Positions 3,791 through 44,218 of a stretch of 46,536 nucleotides of DNA are shown in pieces; positions within the stretch are counted from its first letter, which is position 1; every line of letters starts with the position of its first letter. Both the position numbers and the translations under genes were made by a program. Origin of the DNA: Chromera velia (lineage: Eukaryota). Under the pieces are notes generated by a model. That model worked only from the letters and a program-made list of their open reading frames with translations, ran no database searches and was not told where the DNA came from. The stretch covers positions 1-46,536 of the forward strand of contig JAHBMJ010000505.1 in assembly GCA_018398765.1 (NCBI GenBank), read 5' to 3'.

Positions 3791-5271
3791 CGAAGTGACA
3801 AAATGAAGGAACAGATTCCGTCTGACTGAAGAGAAAAAGACTTGAGGGGATCAGGGAGAGTTCGGACCTGCAGAGGCAGGCAAAGCAACGCTCCTCTACC
3901 TAGGAAAAAAGGATCGACGGGGACTAAGACAAGGGGGGCGTATGGGGCTGTGTCTGTAAAAGGGTCGAGAGAGGGGGTGTCTTGTTTTAATTCCCTAAAA
4001 AGGAAGAACGTCCCATATGAATTCACTGAGTGAAGCCTGAGGGACCGTCGATAAGGTTCGCCCGTGCATGCACCGCGTCGGGTCGTTGGGTAAGCAGATC
4101 ATCGAATGATCCAAAAAAGCAGGAACAAAAACATCCATAAGCTAGACAAAGAAGCATGCAAGACCTATTGAAGATTGATAAGCCACCACTTGATCCTATT
4201 TCAATGAAAGTAGGAATCAAAATGAGTTAATCAAAATAACTGAAAGTATCTTAAGTTGAACAATGCAAAATAGACTACAACAAGGTTTACGATAAGGTCT
4301 GGTACAAGGTGGTCATCAAAGCTTATTGTAATTCTAAGTGACTCTGAGTCTAAGAGGCCAGTCCAAAGTTTTTAAGCAGTGCTGGTTCATAGTAAACAAC
4401 TTCATTTTATATGATATATTCAATTGAGTTCCCCCCCTCCCCGGCCCTTCCTCACAAAAAATTAAAGTGCTAGTTAAAGTGAAAGTATAAAACACAGTTA
4501 ATTAAGACAAATTAGACCATATGAAATTTAAGCATTTTTATGTATACATGTTCTTTTAAAGTGTACAGTTTTTTTTTCATAAGGATTTTGAAGAAAAAAA
4601 CTAGAATACACATTTATTATTATCATACGTCATCGCCATATTGGCCTATGAATAGGCGTTTAGCATTTGGCGGCAATGTACAAGGCGCAGTTCGGTTCTT
4701 TACAACAACACTAGCAGCAGCAGTTCACTTTGATTTAATATATACTTAATTTAACGAGGATGCTTATTTTCAAACTCTTCTACTTCCGGAGCAGCATGCT
4801 TATACATGTTGCTGCATGAATGATGCTGATTCCTACACTGATTCAGGGGACATATAGTCAGCACATGTCAGCATTGTAAAGCCTTAAACAACAAAAACTC
4901 AAACAAGCTTTCTTTTTTTATCTGTTTTAATTTTTTTTCTAACTTTCTTAAATTTATAAGTGCAAATCGAATCTACATCAAAGGTCCAATCTAAGTAGCG
5001 CTTAAACGATTGGCCAAACCGGTTTTGTATGGACTGTCTAGCATAAATATATCGTTCAAACTTAGGTTCAAACATAAAAAAACATCTTTTTAGAAACATC
5101 TATAGCACTTGACGGAAAAGTTTTGGGAAAACCTAGTGAAAAACATAAAACCGCCAATCGATTACGTTCATCATCCTAACAAAGCTTGGTGTGTATATAT
5201 AAAACTCAAACAAACTTTCTTTTTTTTTTCTTTTTTGATTTTTCTTTTTTTAGAGTATATCCTTAGAGTAA

Positions 5272-5313
5272 CGCATGCGGGCGGCGGCCCCGGCATCAAT
5301 AACCCCCCCCCCC
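5272..5313 (+). repeat. Left terminal inverted repeat
   Basis: Reverse-complement match to 11471-11510. Confidence 0.88.
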
Positions 5314-5482
5314 GCCCATGGTGGCACCGGACCGGAGACTTAATTCTGATATCAACAGTCTCTCAGCACAACCAGTTTGAGTCTCTTCAAGTAGCTTTAG
5401 TGAAGTGTCTTGACCCTCACGGTACTTTTTTTTTCGAAAAAACGAGCAGGGGCGGTTCTGGAAGTCCCTTTTTCCTCTTGTC

Positions 5483-7024
5483 ATGTCTGAAGATGCTTTT
5501 CAGAGGGCAAAGGAGTTTGGGAATGCCACCCAGCTCCTCAATGCTGATTCCCTTCTAGTTGTTAGATTGAAGGGGACATCAGTTCGGTTGGCTCCAAGCA
5601 CTGAGCGCGATCTAGAGGGCGCGGTGCAGAGAGGATTAATCAGCTGTACGGCCAGAGTCCATTCGTTTGTTGTTCGACATGTTGTTCTGTCTCTGTTCCG
5701 AAGGACAAGCATTGGGCCGCGGGAGAAGCCTAGACGGGTTCCCATCCTCTCCGCCCTCAGGACAGTGGCCACGGAAAGTATGTGGTAGCGCCTACAGCCC
5801 AGACGGATGTATGAAAAGAATTGGCGGTGGGCCTTCAAGTGTATGACCCAGGGGCAGAAGGGCGTCCTCATACTGTCTCTTAAGTACTATTTATTGCAAC
5901 TGACTGGAAAGTTTGAGGCGATATTTTTGACCAGAGAGGTCCTTTGGGGATACATCGGGGGGGAGGGGGGGACTGAGAGGTCGAGAGAGTTGCGTCCTCT
6001 TTGGAGAAGTTGGACAGAGACCCACTTTCTCTAGGTAGTGGCGCCTGAGAGGGTCCCGACTGATAACTTCTGAAAGATGGTCAGTCTGTCTGCTGGCCTT
6101 CTGGCGCCTTCTGGGGCTAGTATCCCCTTACCACTGCTTGCATGTAAAGACTCATTTGACTTCTGTTTCTCTTTCTGTGTTTTCTGTGCAGATGGACGCC
6201 CCCCTCATCTTCGTTATCCGTGGGGAGGCCCTGACTTTTTTGTTTGGAAAGGCAAGGCGGGAGCTAGGACTGGGGGTCCACCTTAAGGACATCTTTGGGG
6301 CCTCGTTCCCCGCGGGGCCTGTGTAGAGAACAATCGACGCCATGCTCTACATCGTGATGGAGAGCCTTGCAAGCCAAGGACGGGTTGACGTGGGGCTGTC
6401 GTACACCATCCAGAATGTCCTCCAACCTTCCGTCCCGACTCCTTCTTCTGCTCCCATCCCGGCTCCTTCTGATGACCAAGAGATGCCTCAGGTTGGTCAG
6501 CTAGTTAGGTTTTGGAGCTGGCATCACCTTATCACTGCTTGCATTGATGCAGTCAGCCAGTCGGCTAGTCAGTTAGTCAGTAATTGAGAGATCAATGACA
6601 TGCATGCATGTGTTTCTCAGTTGAGTTGAGTTAGTCAGTTTCTGGGCTAGTCAGGTTGCATATGTTAGCTCATAGTTCATAAATGAATGCAATGTTTACT
6701 CATACATAAATGCAGACAGAGGCGCAGGGACAGACTGACGAGCACAGAGACGAGCACCCTCTGCATGAAGGTACGCGCCATCACCTTTTTGATATCAAGT
6801 ATCGAAAAGGCATAACGTCTGGTCGTGCTTTCTCCATCACATACAGTACACTGATAGTCACACTGACAGTCACACTCACACGTACTCGATCACGTACATA
6901 TGTAGGCGCTGTGCATTCAAATTCATACTCACACTTGCACTTGCATGAACGTGCAGACACGTCAGGAATGGACGTGGACGATGAGGAAATCGATGCCGAG
7001 GAAGGGCTTGGATCTTACCCCTGA
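5483..7024 (+). pseudogene. Transposon partner gene of unknown family, ~340 codons; exons 5483-6079, 6192-6491, 6716-6770, 6957-7024
   Basis: ORFs 5483, 5807, 6138 and 6342 join through phase-compatible GT-AG introns. The only disruptions are point stops (TAG 5786, TAG 6032, TGA 6071, TAG 6324), with no frameshifts. Acidic C-terminus. Confidence 0.65.
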
Positions 7025-7040
7025 GTCAGTCATACATACA

Positions 7041-11470: not shown

Positions 11471-11510
11471 GGGGGGGGGGTATTCGTGCCGGGGCCGCCG
11501 CCCGCATACG
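11471..11510 (-). repeat. Right terminal inverted repeat
   Basis: Reverse-complement match to 5272-5313. Confidence 0.88.
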
Positions 11511-13159
11511 AAAACTCAAGCAAACAAACTTTAGAGTAAATCTCCTTCATGGAAAGAAAACAATGATTAAAAATTTAAAAAACAATGCGTAATTAACGTA
11601 TATCACAAAATTGTAGAGAAAGTTAAAAAAAAAACTAAACGGCTGTACACGGCTAATCCATCTTGGCCCAGTAGATTGTGATTTGCAGCAATGATTTAAA
11701 AAATCTATAAATTAATTTAGAAATAAATCTGAACAAATATCTAAATAAATGTATAATTTTTTATTTCCGATGAACTTTTTATATGAAACCTAGTATTAAA
11801 CTAGGCTTTTCTGCCGCAATGTTATATGCAGTGCTTCAAAAAGAAATATTGAAGGCTCGTTTTCTTTTCAATAAAGAAAAACGTCTTTCTATTTTTATGT
11901 ACGTCTTTTCTTTGCTCTTTCAGTTCTTCTATTATGTCTGTCCTCCTTGTTTTCTTTTTATGCAACGTACGGCCCTTCTCGTTCTCTGTCGGCCTCTCCT
12001 GAGGGTTAGTTTGGCCTGCCTGTCAATCGTAAATATTTTTCTTCGCATCTCCTTCAGGAACGGGAAGAAGAAGGAAAGACAAAACAGAATGCGATCTCAG
12101 CGGAGAGAGGGAAAGAAAGTGACGAGAAAATATGAGACAAAAGGGGAAAGTAAACGTCATACAGAAATGCTATGGATGTGCACTCAGAGTGTCACTTTGT
12201 CTGTCGTTTTGCAGGCAGCCTTCCTGGCATGACTTCTGCTGCATGAGAAGATTGAGCTGAGGCAGGCAGCTTAGTCGTAAACATTCAGACAGTCGTGAAT
12301 GGGTGACCGTCTACCATTGCCGTGATGGTCCACTCCACTCCCAGATCCTGAAGAGAAGAAAAGAGGAGAGGGAAGAAAACGAGAGGACGAGAGTTTTAGA
12401 AGGAAGACTGTCATATTGAAACGTCGATTTCGTGCAAAGCTCTTCTCTTTTCTTCTCCGTCATGAGTCTATATACGACAGCAGATTATCACTCGTTATCA
12501 CTATGCAAGTTGATGAAGGACTGTGCATAAGAGATAGCTGGGTTAAGGCTAGGAAAGTCTACAAATATAAATCATGTGATAAATGCGGATTCACGTCTAT
12601 TTTGGGTCCAACAGGTTTTATCAAGGACTCACTGAGTATCACTCTTCATCTCACTACCATTTCATCTTAGTCACCATTACTCAAATTCTATCAAATTATA
12701 AAAGTAAGGCATTGCTAAAATACGATCTCAAATGACGTATTGCTTCAAACAAAACGTGCGAGCGCTAAAGAAATCAAAAGGCAGACACACCTTAATGTTT
12801 TCCCTGCTTGATGGTTTTTTTGCTCTTGTAGGCATTCACAACGACTCACAAAGTTTGAGAGGAGAAATGAAGGACAGCACTGACTTAGAGAAGCTGAAAG
12901 CAAAGAAAAAGATCTACAGATCCACACGAAATTAATACAAGGATTGATTGAAGCAGCACCGGTAACTTTTCAATGTTTTCATCTGGAACTCTGCGGAAGA
13001 GAGAATGGCTGCGGAGAGACAGTTTCTCGCTCTAGTTATCGACATAGGATCAAAAAACCACTGAAGTGGCTGGAAGGAAGAAAAGCGCCCCTGCCTGATA
13101 CATTGCATTACAAGTGCAAGGAAAGACACGACCTGCGTGCCTTCCAAGAGAGAGGGAGG

Positions 13160-13571: not shown

Positions 13572-14378
13572 GGGGATAGGGAGGGAGGGTCCGGACTTCG
13601 GAGGGAGGGAGGGGGGGAAAGAGGGGTCCGGGGAGGGAGTAGCGGAACGACAACAGCCACAGAGGCAAGAGAAATGAACACGAGGTGCAAGCCAGCATAA
13701 AAAGAAAACGTGAGACAACTTTAAAATCTCCTCATCCTTTCCATACCCCCCTCACTGACTTTCTGACAGGCCAGTACTATGGATCCATATGGTACTTCGT
13801 AGTTCTCACACTATATTTGCTCATAAAGTTCTCCACCCCCTGTGTCATCCCCATGTCTCCCACCCTCACACTATCCTCATGAATATCCCCCTTGACCAGC
13901 AAAATAGGCTGGAGAGAGGTCTAGGTGGGCCACCCCCACGGAGTGAGGGAAGTCCACCCCTCTCGACCCCTCTTGCCACACCCAAGAGAACTTTGACTCC
14001 ATCTGACTCCCTTGTGGGGTGTCAGGTCACCTGCATCAGAAAATAAGCAATCGGAAGTCAGAGAGAGAGAGTGAGGTTTGATATCGTCTATATTTAGTTG
14101 AGGCGCATGGAAGCTTTCTCTTTGTTGCCAAGAGTAGATTCGAACAAATCTTACACTCAGCAATATGTAGGCATTCGATCTGCATTTATGCGTAGTCTCT
14201 CTGACTGACTGAGTGCATGCAGTGGGACCATTGAAGGAAGGGCTCGATGATGCACTCATGCAGAGATTCTACACATGTAGAGCTAGGAGATAATTGAGTA
14301 AAAGAAAGGGAACCGAAGCAATGTAAAAAGAAAAAAGCCAAAAGTACCTCCATACTTCATGTTTCTCTTCTCTGTCTT

Positions 14379-14806: not shown

Positions 14807-15424
14807 CTAAACAATCACAAACATAGACAAACAGACAGACTATCGATATCTTGATGTGTTGTTCTTTTTACTGACAGACCAACAGATAGACCAACGGGCA
14901 GACAGGCACAGGGAAGAAAGGAAAGAGAAAAGATTGAACTTTCACATTGTCCTGTCTCATCAAAAAAACATGCATGAGAACCCTAGCATTTCCAGTCTTC
15001 TTCTCTACTCCACTCAATGCATGGTCCTTCTCTACATCAGTCACTGCGAAACCACCCAGGACAGCAGACAGTGTCTATGTAGTTGAGAAGTGGGAGGGGG
15101 GAAAACTAACTTAGCGATGAGTGGTGCACTGGTCCAGCAGATGGGGGTGACCCCGAAGTTTTGTTTTTTTTGGGGGGTTTGTATTCCGGGCCCGGGGTTG
15201 CATGGGATCGACCTGCTTTTACAGTCTCCGAGTTCCTCTTGGGCTTCTGCCCGGATTCTTCCCACTGGCAGGGGCCTGCAGGTGATGTGACGTGACATAA
15301 AGAGGAGAAGAAAAAGGAAGAAAAGAGGAGGCATGTGGGGATGTGTCTTCAATGACTCTTCATCATTCACGAGCCTTCTTGAAAAAGAACTAGGAAAAGG
15401 AATTAAGAGAAGGTGAAAAAAATA

Positions 15425-16106: not shown

Positions 16107-17672
16107 GGTTTCTTGAAATGAACCCACATGACAGTGTGTTCCTTCCTTCCCCTCCCCTCTGCTGACATCTTCATTAAATTTTGACGTGTCTTTATAGCAC
16201 TGGGCATCCTGTGCAGATACAGGCTCGGTTTTCTTTCTCTGCAGATGGACAGGCAGGCATGTTTATATGAGCAGGCGTTCTTGTGAACATCCATTTGAAT
16301 CGGTACGCATGCTCGGATAAATGGCTGGGCTTTTCGCGCTCACCATTCCTGACAGTACGCTAGACGATGCACAAGACCACAGGCATATTGACAGATGGAG
16401 CTATATAGGGGCAGACTGATGGCACATGTACTTACGGTCCCTTCCAGAAGCACAGGCTCTTCTTTTGCCGACTTCAAGGTGCTGCGTGCCTCAGTTCAGC
16501 CCAGATTGTCCAGATGATCACCGGCATCTGAGAGATCCCCATGTAGGCCTAGCCCCAGGCACCGTGTCGGAGGCCTTCTTGACATCTTGATCCATTCTGA
16601 GGGGAGAAATAGCAAATATGTACAGCCAGTCAATCATGTATTTGTTGTCTACTTTCGTGAATCGATCGCCAGTCAGATGTCAAGATGAGCAACACCCCTC
16701 AACTTACAAAGCACTGAGAAAGACAAGAAACGCTCAGAAGAAGAACTAATCACAGAGAAAGAAAGGTAGCCAGTAGGCTTGAAAGATTGAGGGTAGATAG
16801 TGGGAGAGGGAGAGGAAAAGATGAGTGAAGGAAGACAGGGTCGAGATGACTGACGTCTCCACTTGACCTAGCTTTCTGCCCAATCGAAAGGGACAGAATA
16901 GAACGGAAGGGAAAGAAAGAAAGAATGGTCTCCCTTAGAGATAATGAGCTACATCGATCACGAGAGAACGAGCACAGACAACGAGATCAACTCATCTGGC
17001 TGAGGGAAGAAAGGAAATGAGAAAGGAAGTAAGAGATATAGAAGAGCTCGGATGAAGAAAAAAGAAAAATTGTGCATGCATGCATGCATGCAGGATACCG
17101 CACGCACTCCATACATCTCCATATATTTCCGGAGCCGATTGATCTGCAAGTGAAGGATGGACGCACAGAGGAAGGCTTGTGTCTCTCTGTCTGCAAGCGA
17201 TAAATGTGTAGCGAGAGTAAGGCTTGAGTCTTTTGTCTGCAAGCGATGAGTTTACAATGAGAAGAAGGCTCGTGCCTCTCTATCTGCTAACGAAGAATGT
17301 GTAGGCGTGTGTTTCTCAGTCTGCAAGCGATAGGTGTGTAACATCCGTAGGTAGCATCCTAGGACGTGTGGGAGGCCAGCAAAATGCAGAAGTAAGATAT
17401 TACTAAGCACAAATAAAGGTAGCTTCACGGGGGGTAGGCAAGCGAAAGGCAACTTCGCAGAGGCGAGGTAAACGGAACTTCAAGGAAAGGCAACCGGTGC
17501 GACGAAGTCAAGCTGCTGTCTGAGCAGAGATTGAGAGAGCCTAGGAGAGAGCTGAATGTACATACTGCTGACTGAACCAAGAGTGAAAGAGACAAAGCCA
17601 TGTTGCTATCAGAGTAGAGTGTGAGGGTGGACTATGCCATGTACTGACCGAAAGAGAAGCTGGAAGGCTGAG

Positions 17673-26430: not shown

Positions 26431-26744
26431 GATTTGTTTAGTTCTATTGAGCCGAGACTTCTTTTGCTATGACGCTCTATAGGCCGTGTGCATGCTGTAG
26501 CGCTCTATTGGCCGTGCATGATATCTGAACAGTTCTGCGCGTGGCCCCCGTCCATCTATATTGGTATGCATGTATGCGTTCACATATTTCCGGACATGCC
26601 GTAGCCTTGAAAATGTTCATGCATCGTATCGCACATACGTGAAGCAACAGTGCAACAATGCCGTCTCATCATATTCAATTTCCGTTCTCATTGTATGCAA
26701 TACAGAATCGAATTTATATATTCGATTGAATCGATCGATCGAGT

Positions 26745-29640
26745 GACTGTGAGGAGGCTGTGCGTACGTGTCCAGTCTGTCCTGCAGTCAATGCGGTGAA
26801 GCGACAGATTGGGAGTCGAGACGACTCTGAGCAGAACAAGCATCCCTTCAACTACAAGATCTTTCAGGACTTGACAGAGATATACGACAAAGGAATAGGT
26901 GGATTCGTCTACCTCTCTGTCATCGTTGACAGCAGCAAGCGCTTCAAGTCCCTCATGGCACTCACTACCAAGGATACCGCCCTCGATCACCTCATTGCCT
27001 GGACTGCCAAGTGGGGGGCACCCACCTGTGTCTGCACAGACAACGGTGGGGAGTTTATCAACCACGAGTACAAGAAGTTCTGTCGAGAACGAGGCATCAC
27101 ACATCTGACTGGGCTCGCGTACACTCCGGCAGTTCAGGGCATCGTCAAGAAGGCCAACAGAGAGATTAAGAAGGTGATGAAAAAGTTGCTTGATCAGTAC
27201 AAGTTCCCTCATTCTACCTGGCCCGCACTCCTTCCGGGTATGTGCTATGCTCTAAACACCACTGTACATTCAGTGTTGGGTGAGTCACCGTTCAAAGCTG
27301 TCTATCGCCGTCTTCCCCCCATGCACTCACTTCTCGTTGGCATACCCGTGCTTGCTTTTGATCCAAAGCCTCGAACGAAATCATTGTTTCTAAGGGGTGA
27401 AGTGGGCATTTTTGGGGGCGAGTGGAATGAGTCTTCCTACTCTGTTCTTGTAAAAAGAGAAAACAGATGGACAGCTTTGCGTCTGCATCCTGAGGCTCGC
27501 TACGTTCGTTCTGTTCACTCCTTTACTGCCTCTCATCTGCTTCCACTGCCGTCTGTTCCTGTGTTAACGGAAGTTGTCAGTGGTGATAGTCCACAGGAAG
27601 ACGAGTCGCATGCACACAGAAACAGAGAACAGACATCCATTGAGCTTCAGCCAGGTGTCGGTGTCTTTGCTTCTTTTGAGCATGGAGGTCCCACTTTCCC
27701 TGCTATCCTTGTTTGAGTCATACGTGCATCCGTTGATGTCTTTTTCTTGACAAAGCTTGATGGAATGAAAGGATGGAAGCGAGGAGAAATTGCTTATCTG
27801 CCGAAAGGAAATATTTCTTCTTCTTTCCCTCTTGAGGACGGTGAGCCTCCTCTCCATCTATCTACCTCTGAGCCCTCCGTGGCTTTAGGGGGCGGGCTAG
27901 GGGGCGGGGAAATGAATGTCTCTCTTTTTGAAGCCGCTCCATCTCTAAATAAACACATGGATGAGCCAGAGGCGGTCGATGGGGACTGGATCTTCCCTCC
28001 AGATCAGGAAAGGGAAGTGAAGATTGCTGACCTCTGCAAGCTCGTTGAGATGGCTGCCTCCGCTTAGGCAGTCAAAGTCCCAAAAAGTCATGTACCTGCG
28101 ACGAAAGAGGAGATAGCAAAGGGTGATTTCGATGAGTTAATCCTCATTGAGATGCGCAAGTACAAAAAAAACCTTGCCATCTACGTCATGGAGAAGGGAG
28201 AGATGCCTCCTGACTTCGACAAGGCCATTCCGATGCACTTTGTCCTGATGTGGAAGCTCAAGGGCAACCGCCAAGTTCCTAAAGCATGCCTCGTTATCAT
28301 GGGTCATCGAGATTCCATGGTGATCGAGACCTTCTCTGGCACTCCCGATCCTGGCCTCGTCAGAGCAGCTATCATCTACGCCCTTAGCAACTCCTTCGCG
28401 TGCGCTAAGTCTGACGTGTCCACAGCTTTCTTACAAGCCCCCATAGATGTGGGGAAGAAAGTCTACATCAAGCTCCCCACCGAGATTCCCGCTATCATGA
28501 CTGAAGAGCTTCCGGAGTACATACCGGGGGCGATTGTAAGTGCCAACAACGCCCTCTACGGATTGAAGTGGAGTCCACGCGTCTCTACTAAGTGGTTCAA
28601 GTCCAAGGCGAAGAAGTTTAGTTTCGAGCAGGCAAGCGAGTCTATCCTCGTTTGCAGAGATCCTTCAGGAGAGATCGATACCATTTTGATCATATATGTT
28701 GATGATCTTTGGGCATGGGGAAAGGATCCGATGGACATTCTCTATGCCATCAGGAAAGAGGTAGACATGGACCCTCCCAAGCTGCTCAGTGATGGTGCTC
28801 CACATACCTACGTCGGACAGACTGTCAGAATCATCAATAACATGCTGATCATCGACCAGACTGATTACCTTCAAGCGCTGGAATGTCTGACGGAGCTGGG
28901 GGATAAAGGAAAGAGAACTCTTCGCAGGTCTGATTTTTTCCCTTCCTCTCTCGATAAATCTGTTAATCCCTTGCTTGTCTCTCAGTATCAGTCATAGATA
29001 GGCAAGTTAGGATGGGTGTGTCGTACTCTGCCTGCCTATGCATTCGTATTCTCGTCCCTTTCACGATTCAATACCAAACCGACTGACCGATTGATTAATA
29101 CCCTTCGTCGTGTGATTGTACATGCACAGCTTTATGCAAAGCCTCTTGTCTTTGTCCGTCTGTTGTCCGTCCCTCTCCTTCGCGTCTGGTCAGATCTAGG
29201 GTCAGATGCATCTTTTTCTCTCAGAGAATATTCTGCACAGATAGGATTTGAGATTCAGTTGTTGGAGAAAGATGCTTCTCTGCCAAGCAAGAAAGAATGC
29301 AACACTGTTTTCTGGAAGTCACGTTCTCTGAAAGTGAAAGTCAGCTCAACAACTTCGGCTGAACTGATTGCTCTGCGCGATGTGGTTTAGGATATGGTGA
29401 AAGCTGCCTTTGAGTACTTTTGTTTTGTAGAGACGATGTGGAAAGCCAAGCCAACAGTTCAGTTCATTCTTGACTTTCAACCTCTGCTTGCACAGCTGGT
29501 CTCTGGTCGTGCCCATTCTGATCCCAGTCAGCAAGGCATGCTTGAGTTTATGCTGCAATGCAGAAAGGAAATGAATGCAGAGTTCGTGTATACGCGTGCG
29601 TGTCCCGACAGACGAGATGAGAGCAGATAGAATGACGAAG
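26745..29640 (+). pseudogene. Copia A pol remnant (integrase, reverse transcriptase, RNase H)
   Basis: CPVC, FQDL, IVD, TDNGGEF, GIVKKAN (integrase); SDVSTAFLQ, LYGLK, IYVDDL (RT); VWSD..ASF, SSTTSAEL (RNase H). Scattered in-frame stops. Confidence 0.93.
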
Positions 29641-30707
29641 TGTCTTCTGTCCGAGTGAGACTGTGAATTAAAAGAAGAATTAAAGAAGAAACGGCAAGCT
29701 GATAGTGATTGAGCGTTCTTTGTTTGTATGTTTCTTTTTCTTCATCTTCCTCTTTACATGTCTTCATGATTCTGTTCTTTTCCTTTTCTTTTCTTCGTTT
29801 CACTTTTACTCCCATATGACAAGAAAGTGAATGAAAGCATTTCATGCAATTTCATGCTTGTTGTTCGATTCTTTCTCGCAAGCTTTGTTTTCTTATTTCT
29901 TATTATGATTGATCTGGTCCTTCGCCGAAGATTGAAAGCTTTTGGTTATTTTTTAATCATTAATGCTTCAGTGAAGTAAGCCTGTCTTGCATGTGCATCC
30001 ATTGTGTCTGTTTGTGTTATGAATGTCAGTCAAGCATTACTCGTATCGTTGCAACGACACTCAGGGGGCGATCTGTTGAGCCGAGACTTCTTTTGCTGTG
30101 GTGCTCTATAGGCCGTGTGCATGCTGTAGCGCCCTATTGGCCGTGCATGATATCTGAACAGTTCCGCGCGTGGCCCCCGTCCATCTGTATCGGTGTGCAT
30201 GCATGCGTTCGCGTATTTCTGTGAATGTGATGGTCGGGGCGGGGCTGACGTGCGTGGCCCGATCAGATACCGCAGCGTGAATTCCTGGGGGGCCACGGCA
30301 TACGCGAGCGTGTGGGGGCCACGTGTTTTGCTGAGGAGACGGAGTTGATTCAGACTGATTGATCTGATGGCTGTGTGATTGAGAGTTGTCAGTCTGTTGT
30401 CGTACATCAGACAGTGCAGATCGTAAGATAAACAGACACCGCGCGTTTTAGACACACGTTCTCGTAGGCAGCTTATGTGCGTGTCTCGTCTCCAGCCTGA
30501 ATTAATTGAGGCTTCTAGATTGATCAGCAAAGGAACCTCTCGGAAAGGGAGCAATGCATACGGTGAGTTTGAACAGACCCTTATGTATCGTGTGCGTTGA
30601 GCAGCGGCAGCCTTCTAAACGTCTGAAAAACATTCACACCGTCATAATTTGGTGTTCTCCACGCGGGCTCAAACGTTTCGTTCTCTTTTTGTTGCAGACG
30701 TCTCGAA

Positions 30708-31781
30708 ATGCCAGGAGACAACTCCCAGGTTCCTGCAGCTGCCGGTGCTTCCCCTTCTCCTTCCAAGCCCCATGACTTCAACTGGGTGAACGAACTGAAC
30801 TCCATGGAAGGTTTTGAACTTTGGAGGAGAGAGTTCCTGAAGTTTGCCAAGTTCCAGCTCAAGGCCAAGTTCATTCCGGATGATGATAAGAGGAAAAAGC
30901 TCTGGACCCTGGTGTTATTGCGTGCTTTCAAGAAGTTCGACGACTTCAAAGACAGCATGCTCACCATCAAAGAGCAGGAGCAGAAGTTTGGGGAGGATCT
31001 TCTCGCCGTTGTCGCCGTTACGATTCTTGATCCCAAGGAATCGGAGCGCAGACAGTTCGAAGAGAGGTACATTGCGATGAAGAGAGAGAGGAGAGACGAC
31101 CTTTTCCAGGCCCTGGTGAAGGAGGACAAGCTCCTTGCCAAGGCAAAGGTGAAAGGCTACAAGCCTGATCCTTCCACTCAAAAGCGCACTCTTGAGAAGA
31201 TGTACTTGAATAAGGAGTGGCTGGATGGAGTGAGGAGGGCAGCCAGTGAATTGAAGAAGGAGTCCGATGCTCTAACGTATGCCGAGATCCATCCCCGTCT
31301 CGTCGAGGATGCCAAGATCCTCCATGGGAAGAGGGTTAGCAGGCAGGTGGAGGAGTCGTCCAAGCCTAAGACGACCCCACCTCCCAAGTATCAGGAGTTT
31401 TCTGGGGCGGCAGAGGGACGTGCGAAGAAGGGAAAGAAAGGAAAGGGGAAGAAGGGCAAGAAGGAAGTGACTCCCTCCCATGACGCCAATGCTGCTTCGT
31501 CCAGCAGCTCCCCATCCGGTCCCTCCAGTTCCCGCTGCTCCAGCTGCAGGTTTGTGCATAGGGGAGAGAAATGCCCTGCCAAGAACGCTACCTACGGCAT
31601 GAAAAACACGCCTGGGTGTGGGGAGAAGGGACATTTTGTGAGCTGCTGCCCGAAGAAGAGACAGCAGGGGAGAGAGGCCGCCGGGGCAGCGATTCCACGA
31701 GTCTCCGGCACCACCTTTGATATGAGAAAGGGGGATGAATGGGACGAGATGTCCTCCTCCTCTGCCAGTTCGGGTTTGTGA
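30708..31781 (+). CDS. Gag of Copia B
   Basis: 357-aa ORF directly after the PBS, with a C-terminal zinc-knuckle-like CGEKGHFVSCC preceded by a second Cys/His cluster. Confidence 0.85.
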   Translation: MPGDNSQVPAAAGASPSPSKPHDFNWVNELNSMEGFELWRREFLKFAKFQLKAKFIPDDDKRKKLWTLVLLRAFKKFDDFKDSMLTIKEQEQKFGEDLLAVVAVTILDPKESERRQFEERYIAMKRERRDDLFQALVKEDKLLAKAKVKGYKPDPSTQKRTLEKMYLNKEWLDGVRRAASELKKESDALTYAEIHPRLVEDAKILHGKRVSRQVEESSKPKTTPPPKYQEFSGAAEGRAKKGKKGKGKKGKKEVTPSHDANAASSSSSPSGPSSSRCSSCRFVHRGEKCPAKNATYGMKNTPGCGEKGHFVSCCPKKRQQGREAAGAAIPRVSGTTFDMRKGDEWDEMSSSSASSGL

Positions 31782-34700
31782 GTATCCCTGCCTTTGGGGG
31801 GCAAAGCAGCTCTTCCCCGGAACGCAGGGCAAATTCCAGAAGAGCTGCAGGGCGGGGGGGGTTCATTCGAGCCACCCTCCGTAACGCTGAGAAGTTTGCT
31901 GATGATGAGTTTGATGAAGTGGTGGAGAATAGACCAGTGCATCCTGTTGCGGCTTTTCTTGTCGCTTTCGTAGGAGAAGAGGAAGACAACTGTCAGTCGG
32001 GATTGACTGACAGTGGTTGTTCTTTATCTCTTTTTCCTCCTTGCTGTGAGAAGTTTGTTGTGTTGGAAGAGAGTAGGACAGTGCAGTTCCGTCTCGCTTC
32101 TGACGTTGCAGGCCTCTAGAGTGATAAGGTAAAGACGTGTCACCTCCCCGTTAAAGACAAAACGGGGAGGGTGCGTCTGGTACCTGAAAAAGCCGTCATT
32201 CACTCGTCCGTTGGTCGTGCTCTTTTCGCGTGTGCAAAGAAAGAGCTTTATCTTGGGAGAGAAAGTGGGAGGCCGAGTTGGCTGAGACTTACTGACATCG
32301 ATGGCAATCGTTTTGTTACGCCTGTTGATCAGTCTCGTTCTGTTCCTTTTGTTCTCTTTTTTGAGACTGAGGTGAAAGACTGATGGGGGGTGGCGTCGGC
32401 ATACTTGAGGAGGAGTGCAGACATGGCAGTTCAGCCAGCCAAGTCTCTTCATTCTTGTTTTTTCTCTGCATGTGCGGGGGAAGGGAAAGATGAGACGTCT
32501 CTTTCTGCAGAAAATAGAAAGCATCTCCTGTATGTGCTGCATTCTCATCTTGTGCACGCAACGGGGGAGCGACTCCTTTTGACGTTGAGAGAGAAGGGGG
32601 TCGGTCTCTCATACAGCCTGCAAGAGTGCAAGGATGTGCGGAGGGAGTGTAGGGCGTGTCGGAAAGTCAACTTCCGCCGTCGACGTTTGAAGCGTCGGGG
32701 GTGGAAGGCCAAGAAGCGTGGAAAGAGAAAGAGGGCTGGGGTAGAGGAGGCGCCCTCCGGAGTGGGGGGTGACGATGAGAGCGAGGGGAGTGACGAAGAG
32801 TCGTCTTCGGGGGACAGGCATCCCTCGGAGAAGTTCAACAGGATCATTTACCACAACATCAAGAACATGAAGAAGAAGGGTTACGGGGGGTTCAGATATA
32901 TCTCCGTGATTGTTGATTGGAAGTTCCGTTGCGTCTCTCTGAAGGCCCTTTGGTCGAAGGACCATGCAGAGAGGCACCTTCTTTCGTGGATCCGCCGTTG
33001 GGAGGTTGCTGGTTTCGGAAAGCCTCTGATTGTTCAGTCAGACAACGGTGGGGAGTTTTTAGGAGAGGAAAGGTATCTTTGGGTGTATGAAAATGAGGGG
33101 GTTGATAATGAATTTGGCCCGCCAGGCACTCTTGAGGTTCAGGCATTCGTAGAGAGAGCCAATTTGACCTTCATTTCTCTTTTGAACAAATTTTTATTGC
33201 AAGCACGCATTCTATTTTTCATGTGGCTGGCTGTCTTGCCGGGTGTTGCCAATGCACTGAATGATGTGGTACACAATTCGATCGGCCGTTTTCCGAATGC
33301 GTGTGTGTTTGGTCGGCCGTCTGGCATTCCCTCCATTTTTTGCGGTGATGTCGTGCGCATCACTGACCCTTCTTTCCGTCATTCCTTGCCCTTCGAAAAG
33401 AGTGAGCGTGTTCTTTTCGGGGGGGTAATAGGGCCGAGGGTCGTTTTGGTTCTTTTCTGCCGGGGAGGGAGATGGAAGGCACTGCGGGTCCATCTATTTC
33501 ACATCGTTCTAGAAGAGTGGGTTAGCGTAGGAACAAGAGACTTTGATGCCGACCGAAGGGGAATAGATGGAAGGAAGGAGCAGGAGATTCCCAGCAGAGA
33601 GTCAGACGGAGACTTCTGGGTTAGGTGGGATGCCGATGATGACCGCACAGATGGGGTGGTCGGGTCTGATGATGCGTTGTCAGACCATATGGATGCAGAG
33701 GGTGAGTTGCCTCCTGTAGATCCACCCAGAGGTGTTCGTTCCTCTGTGCTGAAGGGCGTTCTCGCGAGAGAGTCCAACGGCGCCCTCTTCCCTGCTCAGA
33801 TAGATAGAGAGGGGGAACAGCAGTTGAGGGGGGTGAGCATTGCAAGACTGAAGAAGCAGGAGGATGGTTCTTTTCGTCTTACCGAGTTTGATCGAATCGC
33901 ACAGAAAGACATCGTGGAGCGTTTTAATCTGCCTGCCGAGGGCAGACTCCCCGAGTCTATTCTGCAGCGCCTTGCAGAGGAGGCTCCACAGCCAGAGCCC
34001 CCAGTCCCTCAGCCTGTCACTGAGAACTCCGATCCCGTTGATGTTGACTTTCCATCCCCCGTTGATGGGGTGGTAGAGCAAGTTGCCAAAGAAGCGAGAG
34101 CAGCTGAGTTTGTTCGTTGGTCACAGATGACAAAGAAACAAAGGAAAGCAGCAGTGAGGGAGAACAGAGAGAAGCGATGCAAGTTGACAGAGAAGCGGAT
34201 CAGCAAGGCAATGGACATGCACTTTGAAGTCGCGTGTGCCGTCCTGAAAGCAGAGAGAGCGAGAAAGCTTTTGCAGAGAGAGAACAAAGCAAAAGGACAC
34301 ATTTTGGCCACCGAAGAGGAGATAGAGCAAGGTCTCTTCAAAGAGGCAGATCGGAAAGAGCTGGTTCGGTGGTGTGTTTGTTCTGTTTTTGATTTGTCTT
34401 CGCAGACTTTGACTCCCCAGCCGGGGGTGAAGGGTATCACCCTCCGTTGGATCCGGACGTGGAAGCTGAAGGAGGGGAAGAGAGTTGCGAAGTCAAGGCT
34501 CGTTGCCCGGGGGTTTCATGACCCTCGAGATTCAGAGCTTCTCGAAACCTACTCCGGGACTGCAGATGCAGGCCTGACAAGGGTTGCGTTTGTTTGGGCC
34601 CTCAGTCGGGGGTGGTAAGCAGCGAAGGTCGATGTGTCGACTGCCTTCCTGCAGGCTCCGATCGGTGAAGGTGTGTGGCTTCGTTTGCCTAATGACCTGC

Positions 34701-36650
34701 CGATTGAGGTCTATCCTGGCTTGCATTGTGGGGTGTACATCAAGATTGTGAAGGCCGTCTACGGACTGGCCGATGCTCCCAAGTGTTACACCGATTTCTT
34801 CAAGAAGAAGGTTCGTGGGCTGGGGTGAACAGAGGTTTGTGAGTCGATTCTCGTGAAGAGAAACAGAAAGGGGGAGGCGATTGGTTTGATGGTGATGCAC
34901 GTAGACGACCTGTTTGTGTTTTCTCCGTCTGTCGATGACGATATAGCAGCAGTACCTACGATGTTCAACACAGATGAGCCTAAGCGTATGGACAACGGAG
35001 AGATGCACACCTATGTTGGCATGTCGGTGCGCATGAGGGATGGTGAGATGCTCCTTGATCAGAGCGTCTACATCATGAACATGGCAGAGTCTGTCAGTCC
35101 AGAAGCGAAGAAGCCACTCACAGACAAAGACCTCCTTCTCCCGACTGAGAAGGATGTCGATCCTTCATTGTAGAAGGAGCAGCAAAGGAATGTGGGGGCA
35201 TTGGGATGGGCGGTTCGCACCCAGCCTAGCCTCTCATTTTTGTTTTCCCACCTGTCCCGCTCAAACACCCATCCGTCTCCCTAGTCCGTCTCCTGCCTCT
35301 GTGCTGGCTACTGAAAAAGCACTGTGGCATGCAAAGGTGACGGCCAAGCCTTTGAAGCTGAAAAAGGTGAGAGGGGTGCCCGTACTTGTTGTGTGGGTCG
35401 ATGCGTCCTACCAATTAAGTTTGAGAGAGGGGAGATTGGGATGGGAGATGCAGATCCTTGATCAAGAGGAGGTGGGTGATTTGGAGAGAGTGAGTGAGCA
35501 CAACACCGTTGTGTTCGCGAGCAAGAAGTGCACTCGAAAGCTCGGGTCCACCACCACTGCAGAGTTGTTTGCGATGCGTGATGGTGTCAAGCTTTCCTTC
35601 AGTGTGTTTAACTTGATTAAGAAACTTTGGGGGGTGTTTCCCAAGGTTCTCGTTGTGAGTGATTCGCAGACCTTAATGAATCAGTTGGCCAGTAGGCAGT
35701 GCAAGAGTGAGCCTCATCAGCAGGTTGAGCTTGAGTATGTCTTGCAGGAGTTAGCAGATTTGGGGGCAACGGTTAAGTGATGATTGAGGTTTTTGTTATG
35801 CATGCCGCGTCCCCGTGTATGAGGGGCGGATCTAGCCTAGTCTGTCAAAAGGTTCCGGTTCGTCCCGTCTGTTCTGAATCTAGGAACACTGCTTATTGAT
35901 CACTTTTACTGCGGCTTATTTCTCAAGCGGCGGTAGAGTAGAACTTGGAGAACAACGAAAAGAGGGGAGAGGCAGGGCAAAAACTTTCTAAAAGTTTGTC
36001 CCCTTGGCAAAGGCTCCCCTTTGACGGCAGAGAACAACTTCAAAGAGACCCCCCCCATTAATTTGCCCCTCATTTTCTCAACCTTCTTTTCTTCCTTTCC
36101 TTTCATGCGTTTGCCCCCCCCTTTTTTTCCCTTCTTGTTTGTATACAAAGAATCAATTACAAAAGGATCGCTTAGTTTGCGCCCTCCGAGTCAAAAGACC
36201 TGGAGAACGCTGCAACCTCCCTACCGAGAAGGCACTCAGGCTGGAAGGGCCCTCTGGTTCCCCTCCTGCTGTGAATTGAACAGAGAAGATTTGCGGCAAC
36301 GAAACGCTGTAGCGTACAGGAAAGAACTTTATAATACCGGTCCATCAGCCTTGTCTGCACTGCCTCGTCTCCCTCTCATCCTCTCACTCTTCTGGCTCCC
36401 AACTTCGCTATCTCTTTCAAAAAATGAATTGTCCCCTCTCCTGGTCTCCCATATGTCTCAAACACAAGAGGAACAAACCGAAATCCAATTTCATGACAGA
36501 TCTCACCATACCTATCGTTTTTAACCTTTTTCATCGCCTTTGCTGCCAACCCTACTGTTTTTGCGAATCTTCGCAGGCGGTTGGCAACGGTTAAGTGGGT
36601 GCCCACTGGTCAGTAGAAAGCTGATCCTTAGACCAAATTTTTGAAAGTCT
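31772..36650 (+). pseudogene. Pol of Copia B (protease, integrase, RT, RNase H), interrupted by a LINE at 35780-36582
   Basis: LTDSGCS (protease); H..H..CRAC, SDNGGEF, VERAN (integrase); DVSTAFLQ, YGLADAP, HVDDL (RT); VDASY, TTAEL, SDSQ (RNase H). Frame resumes as KWVPTGQ*KADP after the insertion. Confidence 0.93.
35780..36582 (-). mobile_element. 5'-truncated non-LTR retrotransposon with restriction-like endonuclease C-terminus (CRE-like)
   Basis: 15-bp TSD GGCAACGGTTAAGTG at 35765-35779 and 36583-36597. Minus-strand peptide AAKAMKKVKNDRY..FRFVPLVFETYGRPG..LSCTLQR resembles the RLE C-terminus. Short TCA-repeat 3' tail. Confidence 0.85.
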
Positions 36651-37449
36651 GAACGTTCTGGTGTTGGCGTTACGTGCAGTCACATTCTATGCATGCGTGC
36701 ATGAATGGAATTCATGGGGGGTGATTGTGAATGTGATGGTCGGGGTGGGGCTAACGTGTGCAGCCCGATCAGATACCGCAGCATGAATCCCTAGGGGGCC
36801 ATGGCATGCGCGAGCGTGCGGGGGCCACGTGCTTTGCTGAGGAGACGGAGTTGATTCAGACTGATTGATCTGATAGCTGTGTGATTGAGAGTTGTCAGTC
36901 TGTTATCGTGCGTCAGACAGTGCAGATCGTAAGATAAACGGATACCACGCGTTTTAGATACATGTTCTTATAGGTAGCTTGTGTGCGTGTCTCGTCTCCA
37001 GCCTGAATTAATTGAGGCTTCTAGATTGATCAGCAAAGGAACCTCTCAGAAAGGGAGCAATGCATACGGTGAGTTTGAACAGACCCTTATGTATCGTGTG
37101 TGTTGAACAGCGGTAGCCTTTTAGATGTCTAGAGAACATTCACACCGTCATAATTTCTGAACATGCCGTAGCCTTGAGAATGTTCATGCATCATATCGTG
37201 TATGCGTAAAGCAACAGTGCAACAATGCTGTCTCATCATATTCAATTTCCGTTCTCATTGTATGCAATACAGAATCGAATTTGTATATTCAATTGAATCG
37301 ATCGATCGACTGATAGAATTGATTTACAATTTAAGCATGTGGATCTAAATCAATTTAGCTAATTGATTTGATAGACTTGTATGACTTACAAGTGTCTGTA
37401 CGTTTGCATATATACTATCAGACCTTCTGAATATCTTACCAACAATTGT

Positions 37450-37522
37450 ATGATTGAGGTTTTTATTATGCATGCCACGTCCCCGTGTATGAGGGGTGGA
37501 TCTAGCCTAGTCTGTCAAAAGG
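37450..37522 (-). repeat. ~70-bp 3'-terminal fragment of the same LINE family
   Basis: Near-identical to 35780-35852 through GTCAAAAGG. Confidence 0.8.
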
Positions 37523-40420: not shown

Positions 40421-41953
40421 ATGCATGTGCCAAATGGGCGATGTGATTTTAGAATTAGAGGGCGTGCAAAAATTTTGATAGAAAGGGGACTGTCTGTTCG
40501 ACTATATGCAGGGCAATTTCGATGGTGCATGTATATTATGTACGCTTGTCATGAAGGGGGTTGCGGAGTCTGGCCGGGAGGGTCTGTTTGTTTGAAAGGG
40601 GGGTGGAGGAAAACAGCCCGGGGGGATCCAAGGTGAACCGGCAGCTAGTCCACTGCAGTGATGGGTCTGTATCTGGTCTGCCACTTTATGAGGGAGAGAA
40701 GCAGGGGCTGACAGGATGGCCGTCTTCTCTTCATGGTCAGTCTCTTAGGTAGCAAGGCAATCAAGAAGTTAGACTGAGTCAGTCAAGCAGGCAGGCAGGC
40801 AGGCAGACAGGCAGGCAGGCACTTTGTCAGTGAGCTACTTCGTCAATCAGTTGGTCAGTACGCCAATGAAGGAGTCGTCTGGACAGTGAGAACATAAGTC
40901 AGTAAGATAGGAATTTATCGGTGTTCGGATTCGAAGGTTTCTTGTTTGCATTCGGGACCCCAAATCATTTTATTCTTCTTTGAATCCTCCTTTTTTCTCC
41001 TTTTTTCTCTCTCGTCCCTGTGTGCAGACAGTGACATGTACTGTGACAGCGTCGCCCCAGATGACCTTATCTTGGGCTGGTCATTGAATTTTAGAGACAA
41101 CCAGCAAATCAGAAACCCCAGGGTTTGCGAGAGACGAGCCAGTGATTGAATTTCCACTCTAGCTTGTCTCGAGTTTTCAGCATCATGTGCTCTGGTCTGT
41201 TTGGTGTCCGCGATTCCGAAGAGTTCCTCCAATGAAGCAGATCGAGTTTTGTGACTAGATCGGGGCATTGTTGGCTGGTTGGAGGGAGTGAGGTTGGGTC
41301 AGAAGGTGGAACAGAAATTTGCAAACACAAAGGAGAGAAAGACTTTCTCACTTATTCAACAAACAACCTGCTGAGAACAACAGGCACGCCCGAACCAAGC
41401 CTCCAGGTCAGAACGGCAGACGTGTGTTTCTTTTCTTCCTTATGAAGCCATCGCCTATTCTTGCACGCCTTTGGGCATGCGCAGAATTTTCTGAATCGCT
41501 CTTGTGGCATTCTCCCGTTTTTCTCTCATTGCTTTTTCGTTCTATGTTTTTTTCTCTTCTTTTTCGTTTTTATTCTTTCGCTCTCTTTATGAGGGGATAC
41601 AGGTATGTGTGTTTGCGTGTGAAGAGACCATTGATCATGCTTCTTTCCTTGCTGGAAGCTTCCATTGAGGAGGCATCTCATTGATCGTGATTCTACACTC
41701 TGTGTCGCTTGAGTACAGAAAGAATTTGTGTTGAATTTTGTTCATGCAATGTACAACAAAACGCATACAGATGGTTTCTTTGCATGACTGCAGATATGGT
41801 GGTTTCGGGGCCAACGAAAGCGCCTGTCCGTTTCTATCCAATTCCGTCGGTCTGGTGCGGGACCTTCAGCGAAGATCCGATTAATTAGGGTTGATTTGGG
41901 CTTCCCCGTAAAGAGCGAGCAGAATTAAGACAGTGAGGCACAGAGACAAGAAC

Positions 41954-41985
<32 letters not shown>

Positions 41986-44218
41986 CTGTCAGACCAAGAG
42001 GAAGAGAGAGGAAGACCAAAAGATAGGAAGAAAAAGAAAGAACTTAAGCAGAGAGACGGGAACGGACACCTGGACGAACGAGTGCAGAGAGGGAGCGGTT
42101 TATGGCCCCACGCAGCAATGCATGGGCTCATCCCTCGCCCAACTACGATCAGGTTTGCATGCTTCCTGGACAAGCAAGGGTAAACTCGTCGGCCAGCAAG
42201 AAAGACCAGGGACGGGGTGGGTGTGGTGCCGCAGAGTGAGAAGGGGTAGCCGCCCTCTCTCCGCCCAAACGGGTTCGCATGCTGTCTGGACAAGTAAAGG
42301 CAGGCACCGTTAAAGCATCGTACTGCTGCTGTACGAAAATCAACGGAAACAAAAGAGAACGGAAGGGGGGCGGGGGGGTAGACAGGAAGAGTATCACACA
42401 GGCAGGCAGGCAGAAAGGATCACGGAAGTACGTAGACAGACAGGCAGGCAGCGACGTCTCCTCGCTCTCTCTCCCGCTGGTATACTCCGACACGATTCTC
42501 CTCGCACAGGATCAACTTGAAGCACGCGCTTTTCACCTCGCCAACTCACCCTCAGCAAGAGACCTCGTTGAGTCGCCAAACCCCATATGGAAACCCGAAC
42601 GATCGAGAAGAGCATCGATCCACCCAGTACAATGACGTTGAAGGCTGTGGCCGAAAGGCACCAAGGGGAGCTGCCCTCTCTATGGGAGGCCGTGGAGGCG
42701 GGGTCAAAATTCCCAAAACACTGCATTATCAGTGAGACTTTGAGACCAATGAACTTTATACCATCAGAAGCGGTATAGTTGTCTCATCACTTCAAAGCAC
42801 CAATTTTGAAAATGTTTCAACAGCCGGTGCCGTCCACTGTCAATTGTACAGCAACTTTAGTAAATTGATGTAAATGACCGATGTCTGGAAAATGACTAGG
42901 AAAATGACCGATATATACACTAAATTGCCTAGCTCATAAATTGTATGTAGAAAGTTATAGAAAATAAGAATTCCACTAGGAATTCTAGTTAAATTAACTT
43001 AAATTTAAAATATTGTTTCCGTGAATTAGATTTCAATTAATTTAGTCCATGCACAGTATTTTTTTTTACAGATTTACTTTTTAACAGTATTAATTCTTGC
43101 AGCAAACTTTATTAAACTTGAAGTGTATGCCTAAAAAGTTATTGCATCTCACCAGCTTTCAGCTTTCAGTTTTTTTCAAAAAAAGTTTTCATTCAAAAAG
43201 AATTCTAAATAAAAAAACAAAAATAAAAACATTTTAGACAAAGAATGCTGAGCAGACTGCTAGCATAAATATTTAATAGTTTAAGTTTAAGTGCGAATTA
43301 ACACGCTTTTATGATCTTTAGGCTAGTCTTTGGCGTAATTTAAACATGTTATTCATTGATTTTGATTCTAGTTTTAATTTGAGGTGAGAAACATTTTCTA
43401 GAACATTTTTAGGCTTGACCCCGAGCTACCGCTGGTACTTTCCCGAACCACCATTCGTGCTTCCACACTTCAAACACCTATGCCACTTACAGCATGAAAT
43501 GAGTTGCTCAAGCCTTTGATATTCCCAGGAGAGCTTTTCCTTCAAACAAACTGCAGAACGCTGCGGAGTGCTCGGATGTGCCCGTAGGAAAACAGCGGTG
43601 AGATACCTGAAAGGACCTCGGAAGCTTTCCTGCCCTCTCCAGCTCCCCGCACCTTTTCCCGAGACACAGGGCTCTGTCTGCAAGGGGGACGCCGTCAAAC
43701 CCCGAGGGGGCATTGTGGTTCGAGAGTGCGAGTCGCTGCAGAAAGCAGAATGACCGTAGTCACACACACAAAAAGCAAACAGGTGTTCACGGCTCCTTCT
43801 GAGAGAACACGCACGTCATTATAACGAAGTATATCAAACGACTCACTCTGACATCTGTCCGGAGGCTGCCGAATAAAATTTCGCGCCAGATTGCGATACA
43901 TATTTCACACCACATATCTCTTCGAACCTCCAGTTCTGTGGAAGTCTGAACTTGGACTGCTCCTTTTCATTCCAAATCAATCCCCAAACTTCCTCTTCGT
44001 ATCTCTTCTTCATTCCTGTCTGTCTCCCCTCTTCATTTCCCCCCCTCTGCCATTCCCTCCTTGCCTCCCTATTTGCTTCCTTACTTTCTGTTCGGCTAGT
44101 TGCCTTCAGTGATTCTCTGCCTTCTGAAGGAACGGTCTTCCCTTGACTCTCTCTTCTAACGGCAAAGGATCGTACGCGCTCGACTGACGATTGCGACATT
44201 TCTTCCCTCTGTCTTCAG

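What the first reader, a model, noticed from the sequence alone, without database searches (positions are those of the whole stretch)
4462..43409. Recurrent 'N8-9 + CTAG + same N8-9' scars: footprints of an unidentified transposon
Seen, exact cases: TTAAAGTG-ctag-TTAAAGTG (4462), GAGAGAGC (17533), CTCCGACA (22545), GTCAGCCTT (24056), GGGGCGGG (27889), GGTCAGAT (29188), TCCGTCTCC (35272), GAAAATGA (42888), AACATTTT (43390). One-transition cases occur at 15381 and 42968. The duplicated words are unrelated, but the spacer is always the palindrome CTAG. Two scars are demonstrably insertions. Deleting 12 bp at 29188 restores RNase H VWSDASF, and deleting 13 bp at 35272 removes a pol frameshift. Inference: a cut-and-paste element with an 8-9 bp TSD and CTAG (or CT..AG) termini inserted and excised repeatedly, leaving TSD-CTAG-TSD. 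This is analogous to P-element ends rejoining at terminal CATG. Roughly one scar per 5 kb implies very high past activity.
Basis: partly seen in the sequence, partly recalled or inferred. Interest (0 to 1): 0.88.

Follow-up and report, generated by a model that had tools for sequence, protein, structure and literature searches.

The report
Uniform CTAG transposon scars in Chromera
This stretch of DNA from the alga Chromera velia carries, about once every 5,000 letters, the same small insertion (a copy of the neighbouring 8-9 letters plus CTAG), most likely the healed mark of a jumping gene, not yet found, that landed and cut itself out again.

Summary
The window is from Chromera velia. 9 of 93 CTAG sites are flanked by an exact 8- or 9-bp direct repeat, none by repeats of 4-7 or 10-14 bp. 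Simulated sequence gave 0 such sites in 199 of 200 runs. Six decayed scars were found too.

The scars are real DNA: contigs of two DNA runs from different studies cross 4462, 5054, 11782 and 22545 without a difference. They are insertions: all 4 scars inside Copia coding regions are missing from sister copies. Their decay suggests they are old, younger than the host Copia copies.

Best reading (inferred): excision footprints of a cut-and-paste transposon with an 8-9-bp target duplication that leaves terminal CTAG tails on the host DNA. The element itself was not found, and no genome was held for a wider search. No characterised superfamily I checked fits both features. A weaker second class (8 bp + CG + 8 bp) matches a CG-ended MITE in the window.

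The parts
4462..4481 (.). exact scar, 8 bp + CTAG + 8 bp
   Evidence: crossed without differences by contigs of X1 and X2 (records 1, 10)
5054..5073 (.). decayed scar, 8 bp + TTAG + 8 bp
   Evidence: crossed by X1 and X2 (records 2, 11)
11782..11801 (.). CTAG scar, one mismatch (transversion)
   Evidence: crossed by X1 and X2 (records 8, 16)
15381..15402 (.). 9-bp CTAG scar, one transition
17533..17552 (.). exact scar, 8 bp
22545..22564 (.). exact scar, 8 bp, just past an ORF end
   Evidence: crossed with 0 differences by X1 and X2 and with 0 gaps by X4 (records 1, 9, 26)
24056..24077 (.). exact scar, 9 bp, inside a multicopy repeat
   Evidence: no crossing piece among those listed
27889..27908 (.). 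exact scar, 8 bp, in Copia copy 1; in-frame 4-residue insertion
   Evidence: sister protein P0004 has a 4-residue gap here
29188..29207 (.). exact scar, 8 bp, in RNase H of Copia copy 1; in-frame 4-residue insertion
   Evidence: P0008 has a 4-residue gap; an X3 contig over 28822-29236 has 12 gap letters (record 18)
29379..29398 (.). decayed scar (TTAG, one transition) in RNase H of Copia copy 1
   Evidence: 12 letters missing in sister copies in X1 and (as 10+2) in X2; 4-residue gap in P0008
35272..35293 (.). exact scar, 9 bp, in Copia copy 2; shifts the reading frame
   Evidence: 13 letters missing in X3 and X4 contigs; frame change against P0008
42888..42907 (.). exact scar, 8 bp, in an AT-rich cluster
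42968..42987 (.). CTAG scar, one transition
43360..43379 (.). CTAG scar, one transition
43390..43409 (.). exact scar, 8 bp
29585..29602 (.). second class: 8 bp + CG + 8 bp (3 transitions between the copies), a 10-bp insertion in Copia copy 1
   Evidence: 10 letters missing in X2 and X3 contigs; reading
6097..6114 (.). candidate CG scar, exact
   Evidence: not shown to be an insertion
12485..12502 (.). candidate CG scar, exact
   Evidence: crossed by X1 and X2; not shown to be an insertion
13956..13973 (.). candidate CG scar, exact
   Evidence: not shown to be an insertion
23811..24010 (.). 200-bp MITE, exact 8-bp target duplication, ends CG...CG; candidate maker of the CG class, not of the CTAG class
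   Evidence: empty site (joint 23811 to 24020) in X1 and X4; loose ends in X3 give a second insertion site with a 7/8 duplication
26443..37313 (+). two nested, decayed Copia retrotransposons (copy 2 at 30220-37156 sits in the 3' LTR of copy 1); serve as before/after reference
   Evidence: Pfam rve and RVT_2; LTR pairs 91.9% identical; sister proteins

Best explanation
The scars are genuine 12-13-bp insertions, a copy of the neighbouring 8-9 bp plus CTAG, and are most likely excision footprints of a cut-and-paste DNA transposon that has not been found. Shown: stereotyped form, presence in DNA runs of two studies, absence from sister repeat copies, decay with age. Inferred steps: (1) the transposase inserts with an 8-bp, sometimes 9-bp, stagger and little sequence preference, duplicating the target. 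(2) On excision it cuts the transferred strand at the element's tip and the other strand inside the inverted repeat, so each host flank keeps a short 3' tail of element sequence. (3) The ends would begin with CTAG, so the two 4-nt tails are complementary, anneal and are ligated without trimming; both target copies survive with one CTAG between. This works like piggyBac's cohesive donor repair, but the sticky letters come from the element, so a scar stays. (4) Many rounds of hopping without template repair left about one scar per 3-5 kb here. The confidence given is for 'footprint whose CTAG is a remnant of the element's ends'; of it about 0.42 is this cohesive form and about 0.33 the 2+2 form listed as first rival.
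For: Constant palindromic spacer between unrelated words of only 8 or 9 bp; a remnant of perfect inverted ends must be palindromic. 4 of 4 CTAG/TTAG scars in Copia coding regions are absent from sister copies. 4 scars crossed without differences in X1 and X2. The side products expected from non-complementary tails are rare: exact non-repetitive cases with spacer CAG 0 of 956; CTG 1 of 947 (shown not to be an insertion); CT 1 and AG 2, all purine- or pyrimidine-only words. Non-complementary tails give other outcomes in known systems: SB leaves 3-nt CAG footprints (PMC7351741, passages); Tc1 gave 26 distinct products in 103 animals (PMC4490562, passages). An 8-bp-duplicating MITE is present in the window with an empty site, so such transposases worked in this genome; the genome paper lists 6.3 Mb of non-autonomous class 2 elements (PMC4501334, supplement 11).
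Against: No element with CTAG or CT ends and a matching duplication stood out: 4 CTAG..CTAG pairs with near-duplications but no inverted repeat; 3 weak CT-ended pairs among 156 candidates. No filled site seen. All evidence comes from one 46.5-kb window. The known 8-9-bp families I read about fit badly: Muta1 excises precisely about 90% of the time and seems to cut outside its ends (PMC5225508), Merlin ends are GG (PMC8101967), P leaves 17-nt tails and mixed junctions (PMC2895639). A palindromic spacer cannot separate the cohesive from the 2+2 form. The CG class would also fit 1+1 trimming of a CT..AG element.
Confidence: 0.75

Rival explanations
1. Same transposon origin, other chemistry: the element ends in CT...AG, leaves a 2-nt tail on each flank, and end joining fills in both tails (CT + AG), as in the 2+2 Tc1 footprint. 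The CG scars would be the 1+1 trimmed product. This share is part of the 0.75 above.
For: Two-nucleotide 3' tails are known for Tc1 (PMC4490562, figure legend). The CG class (3 exact of 1909 CG sites, 0 of 150 simulations reach 3; one shown 10-bp insertion) is what C + G would give.
Against: Asymmetric products (CT, AG, CTG, CAG) should be common and are not. The CG class has another candidate source, the CG-ended MITE, and is weak against the window's own background (3 against 0.64, p = 0.027 uncorrected).
Confidence: 0.33
2. No full element ever sat there: a staggered 8-9-nt cut (an aborted integration or another nuclease) is filled in and joined through a fixed 4-nt linker, for instance a remnant of a transposon end or a hairpin opened off-centre.
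For: No donor element or filled site found. An unchecked AI note reports a like form (9-TA-9) in another protist, also without a donor.
Against: I know of no such process (recalled knowledge). Templated repair inserts copy the flanks (PMC2895639, PMC4490562, passages) and would not give one constant word. Only a small part of the genome was searched.
Confidence: 0.15
3. Extremely shortened insertions of another mobile element ending in CTAG (Helitron-like 3' end, or target-primed retro-insertion).
For: A very high-copy repeat end with a hairpin followed by CTAG occurs three times in the window (26358, 35780, 37450).
Against: Its sharp, varied-flank end is at 35780, about 60 bp from the CTAG; one copy has a 15-bp duplication and an RNA? 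contig ends there, which reads as a LINE-like tail. Truncated inserts should vary in length, and no longer CTAG-ended spacer with a convincing duplication was found up to 400 bp. Helitrons make no target duplication (recalled).
Confidence: 0.05
4. Library or assembly artefact, e.g. from Nextera mate-pair libraries (Tn5 makes 9-bp duplications and the junction adapter has a central CTAG; both recalled).
For: The genome paper used Nextera mate-pair libraries (PMC4501334, passages).
Against: Four scars are in contigs of two DNA runs from different studies (2021, 2022) and one also in a 2019 run. Most duplications are 8 bp. Scar copies and spacers have decayed mostly by transitions, like the LTRs around them.
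Confidence: 0.02

Closest known systems
P element excision junctions (PMC2895639, passages with Tables 1-3)
   Same: 8-bp target duplication; donor flanks keep 3' tails of the element's end; ends start with a 4-letter palindrome (CATG)
   Different: Tails are 17 nt and junctions are mixed; here one product dominates, the word is CTAG and 9-bp duplications occur; no P-like transposase was found
Tc1/mariner and Sleeping Beauty footprints (PMC7351741, PMC4490562, passages)
   Same: Both target copies kept, with a few terminal bases of the element between them
   Different: Target is TA (2 bp), tails are non-complementary and products vary; here 8-9-bp unrelated targets and one constant product
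piggyBac seamless excision (PMC7351741, passages)
   Same: [quoted passage not shown]
   Different: In piggyBac the overhang is the TTAA target and no scar is left; here the 4 letters are extra and the duplication stays
MULE Muta1 (PMC5225508, passages)
   Same: 8- or 9-bp duplication, little target preference, many non-autonomous copies
   Different: About 90% precise excision, apparent cut outside the ends; no retained end bases
Merlin / IS1016 group (PMC8101967, passages)
   Same: 8- or 9-bp duplication; reported in alveolates
   Different: Ends are 5'-GG; GGCC spacers are 0 of 150 here; Chromera is not named and footprints are not described in that paper's main text

Membership tests
Transposon excision footprint (general) | Net insertion relative to the empty site, made of a target copy plus extra bases | tested here: met
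   4 of 4 Copia-borne scars absent from sister copies
Transposon excision footprint (general) | Fixed, family-like duplication length | tested here: met
   only 8 (7 cases) and 9 (2 cases); none at 4-7 or 10-14
Transposon excision footprint (general) | A resident element whose ends and duplication match the scar | tested here: inconclusive
   none in 46.5 kb; no genome held; 24-letter probe for host DNA found 0 in metagenome and viral collections
Transposon excision footprint (general) | Filled allele at a scar site | tested here: inconclusive
   none among the rows listed; those tables were cut
P superfamily | 8-bp target duplication | tested here: met
   7 of 9 exact scars; 2 are 9 bp
P superfamily | Long (17-nt) tails giving longer remnants at many junctions | tested here: not met
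   no convincing longer CTAG- or CT..AG-bounded remnant (2 CT..AG spacers of 32 and 42 nt, near my rough chance estimate of about 1)
P superfamily | P-type transposase | not testable with these tools
   no donor element available
Merlin | 8-9-bp target duplication | tested here: met
   PMC8101967
Merlin | Terminal 5'-GG | tested here: not met
   inferred ends are CT or CTAG; GGCC spacer 0 of 150
MULE / hAT | 8-10-bp (MULE) or 8-bp (hAT, recalled) duplication | tested here: met
   PMC5225508
MULE / hAT | Cut outside the element, so footprints are precise or made of flank bases | tested here: not met
   the spacer is one constant word unrelated to the flanks in 13 of 13 CTAG scars with at most 1 mismatch
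Tc1/mariner | TA target duplication | tested here: not met
   targets are unrelated 8-9-mers
Helitron | CTRR 3' end without target duplication (recalled) | tested here: not met
   every scar has a duplication and no element body

The most novel reading that the evidence does not exclude
Chromera velia carries tens of thousands of identical-format scars (about 38,000 exact ones if this window is typical; 17,000-72,000 from the count's 95% interval) left by an undescribed kind of transposase that joins a long 8-9-bp target stagger with short self-complementary tails on the donor DNA. The genome is then a dated, base-exact record of every past landing site, with separate families readable by spacer (CTAG, CG), and the 12-bp form is a standing source of in-frame 4-residue insertions in proteins.
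Probability: 0.35. Interest if true: 0.82.

Novelty: new variant of a known kind. Interest (0 to 1): 0.62.

Why it matters
Excision footprints are usually too varied to be recognised in a single genome, so past cut-and-paste activity is judged only from surviving copies. A uniform scar can be counted, mapped and dated from one assembly: it gives target preference, hopping rate and timing of a transposon that may be gone. It predicts a transposase chemistry that none of the five families I read about shows, and says something about break repair in a free-living relative of apicomplexans. The 8-bp form adds 12 bp, so it can add four residues in frame (seen in two Copia positions; a third now holds a stop).

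Tried and rejected
No whole genome was held, so the genome-wide test could not be run. A 24-letter repeat probe found 0 matches in the metagenome and viral collections. No listed holder run is on record as RNA. Searches for a donor in the window found only the CG-ended MITE.

The repeat at 29152 (8 + CTG + 8, or 9 + TG + 9) is not an insertion: the sister protein aligns without a gap, so single exact hits of rarer spacers can be chance. Three CTAG sites with 2 mismatches (5125, 10346, 43315) were left out of the counts: about 2 are expected by chance. The Helitron reading of the hairpin + CTAG repeat was dropped (see rivals). A scan for short-duplication footprints found no pooled spacer excess for repeats of 2-7 bp comparable with CTAG. 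The 4-residue protein signature hit 2 places in 12 host proteins, neither a gap against relatives.

The decayed transposase-like frame at 7044-9302 gave no homologue, no solved relative and no Pfam family above cut-off; its family stays open and nothing ties it to CTAG.

Literature: ten full-text searches listed no description of these scars; 'CTAG' has 0 occurrences in the main text of PMC4501334. Supplements of that paper: 12 of 16 files were searched for six TE terms but not for CTAG, file 11 was read whole, files 13-16 were not seen. One P-element paper was not held. The library lacks most subscription papers and Repbase.
Full report
Setting. A protein of the window matches Chromera velia CCMP2878 Cvel_17919 at 100% identity. 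The window is 48% G+C with microsatellites, a few host genes and many decayed mobile elements. No whole genome was held, so all counts are for these 46,536 bases.

The observation. They are 9 of 93 CTAG sites; with one mismatch allowed, 13 of 93. Two more have TTAG (5054, 29379). Exact repeats around CTAG are only 8 bp (7) or 9 bp (2), none at 4-7 or 10-14. Local Markov simulations gave none in 199 of 200 runs; the pooled expectation for the 8-bp class is 0.06 against 7 seen. The duplicated words share no clear consensus (8 words). Four of 15 scars cluster in 761 AT-rich bases near 43 kb, a region chosen after the fact; none lies in the two host-gene regions checked, where 1.8 were expected, which is not significant.

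Real DNA. Contigs of two DNA runs from different studies (X1, X2) cross 22545, 4462, 5054 and 11782 with no difference, and X4 crosses 22545 with no gap. Of the 9 exact scars, 6 lay in the laid stretches and 2 were seen crossed. The other 4 are in multicopy repeats, where the listed pieces come from sister copies and the tables were cut. One of these runs could share material with the assembly, but they are separate studies. With the decay of the scars, this rules out a library artefact, although the genome paper used Nextera mate pairs (PMC4501334, passages).

Insertions. Sister Copia copies give the before state. At 35272 contigs of X3 and X4 lack 13 letters; at 29379 X1 and X2 lack 12; over 29188 an X3 contig has 12 gap letters. 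Sister proteins have 4-residue gaps at 27889, 29188 and 29379 and a frame change at 35272. So 4 of 4 scars in Copia coding regions are net insertions of one word plus four letters.

Age. The Copia LTR pairs differ at 8% of positions, 59 of 60 differences being transitions. Scar copies differ at 5 of 123 positions (4%, biased low because older scars are missed); 9 exact to 4 one-mismatch fits about 5%. Scars inside Copia copies are younger than those copies. This points to a long past period of activity (inference); exact scars could be recent.

A second class. Sister copies lack 10 letters at 29585, where the window reads 8 bp + CG + 8 bp with three transitions. Three exact 8 + CG + 8 cases exist. 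0 of 150 simulations reach three, but against the window's own background p is only 0.027, and 29152 shows that single hits can be chance. The one clear inverted-repeat element with a target duplication in the window is a 200-bp MITE (23811-24010) with an 8-bp duplication and CG ends; its empty site and a second insertion site appear in the contigs. It may be the maker of CG scars. That would show the rule 'terminal palindrome stays behind' at work in this genome, but the link is not shown.

Mechanism. A constant word between two target copies cannot come from the flanks, so hairpin-on-flank chemistry (hAT, recalled) and Muta1-type precise excision (PMC5225508, passages) do not fit. It fits a transposase that cuts the non-transferred strand inside the element, as SB, Tc1 and P do (PMC7351741, PMC4490562, PMC2895639; passages). 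Those leave non-complementary or long tails and other or mixed products. One dominant product, with CT, AG, CTG and CAG spacers nearly absent, is simplest if both tails are CTAG and anneal, as TTAA tails do at a piggyBac donor site. The 2+2 fill-in from CT..AG ends remains close behind. Every step of this paragraph is inferred; no donor was found.

What is known. Footprints as such are textbook. The pairing of an 8-9-bp unspecific duplication with retained end bases matches none of P, Merlin, MULE, Tc1/mariner or piggyBac as described in the passages read. Ten searches listed no report of these scars; the genome paper's main text has no CTAG and its TE table leaves most class 2 DNA unassigned (supplement 11). 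An unchecked AI note describes 9-TA-9 scars in another protist, a lead that this form may be wider; it is not support.

Verdict. Real, sharply defined, unexplained as to its maker: a new variant of a known kind, interest 0.62. Finding the element with a genome-wide search would raise it.

Noticed in passing
window 5272-11510: A multicopy element of about 6.2 kb with ~40-bp inverted repeats starting CG. It holds a decayed minus-strand frame (7044-9302, two stops) whose motifs look by eye like a RAG1/Transib/CMC-type transposase (motifs recalled; no database hit) and a convergent plus-strand spliced transcript (joints in X5 and X8). No short target duplication; a longer imperfect direct repeat flanks both ends.
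   Followed up: partly
window 23811-24010: 200-bp MITE with CG ends, 8-bp duplication and internal CGGAGTGTG repeats; empty site and another insertion seen in contigs.
   Followed up: partly
window 26443-37313 and 23283-26248: Repeat copies differ almost only by transitions (59 of 60 in three LTR stretches). Taking C as ancestral, CpG (32 of 144) and CpA (33 of 170) change about three times as often as CpC or CpT: a methylation- or RIP-like signature in an alveolate.
   Followed up: partly
window 24289, 25102, 27490, 34910, 5682, 6593, 6780, 10208: Sister repeat copies often differ by exactly 6 bp (4 of 12 listed rows, 4 of 12); some read as 2 bp + 4 bp + 2 bp. Possibly a further footprint class; unresolved.
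   Followed up: partly
window 35780-36583, 26358-26430, 37450-37523: Very high-copy repeat end with a hairpin and ATG-repeat tail; the 804-bp copy has a 15-bp duplication inside Copia RNase H. Reads as the 3' end of a LINE-like element on the minus strand.
   Followed up: partly
whole window: Exact 8-bp repeats at period 12 number 21, against 0-7 at other periods from 8 to 24; only 8 of the 21 have CTAG or TTAG. The rest may be coding periodicity, decayed microsatellites or other scar types.
   Followed up: no
window 40049-40426 and 17672-17947: A 92-bp tandem repeat that copies the end of the Cvel_17919 gene, and a 38-bp degenerate tandem array.
   Followed up: no
window 19041-20033: Dual-specificity phosphatase domain (Pfam DSPc, E 5e-24); ordinary host gene.
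   Followed up: no
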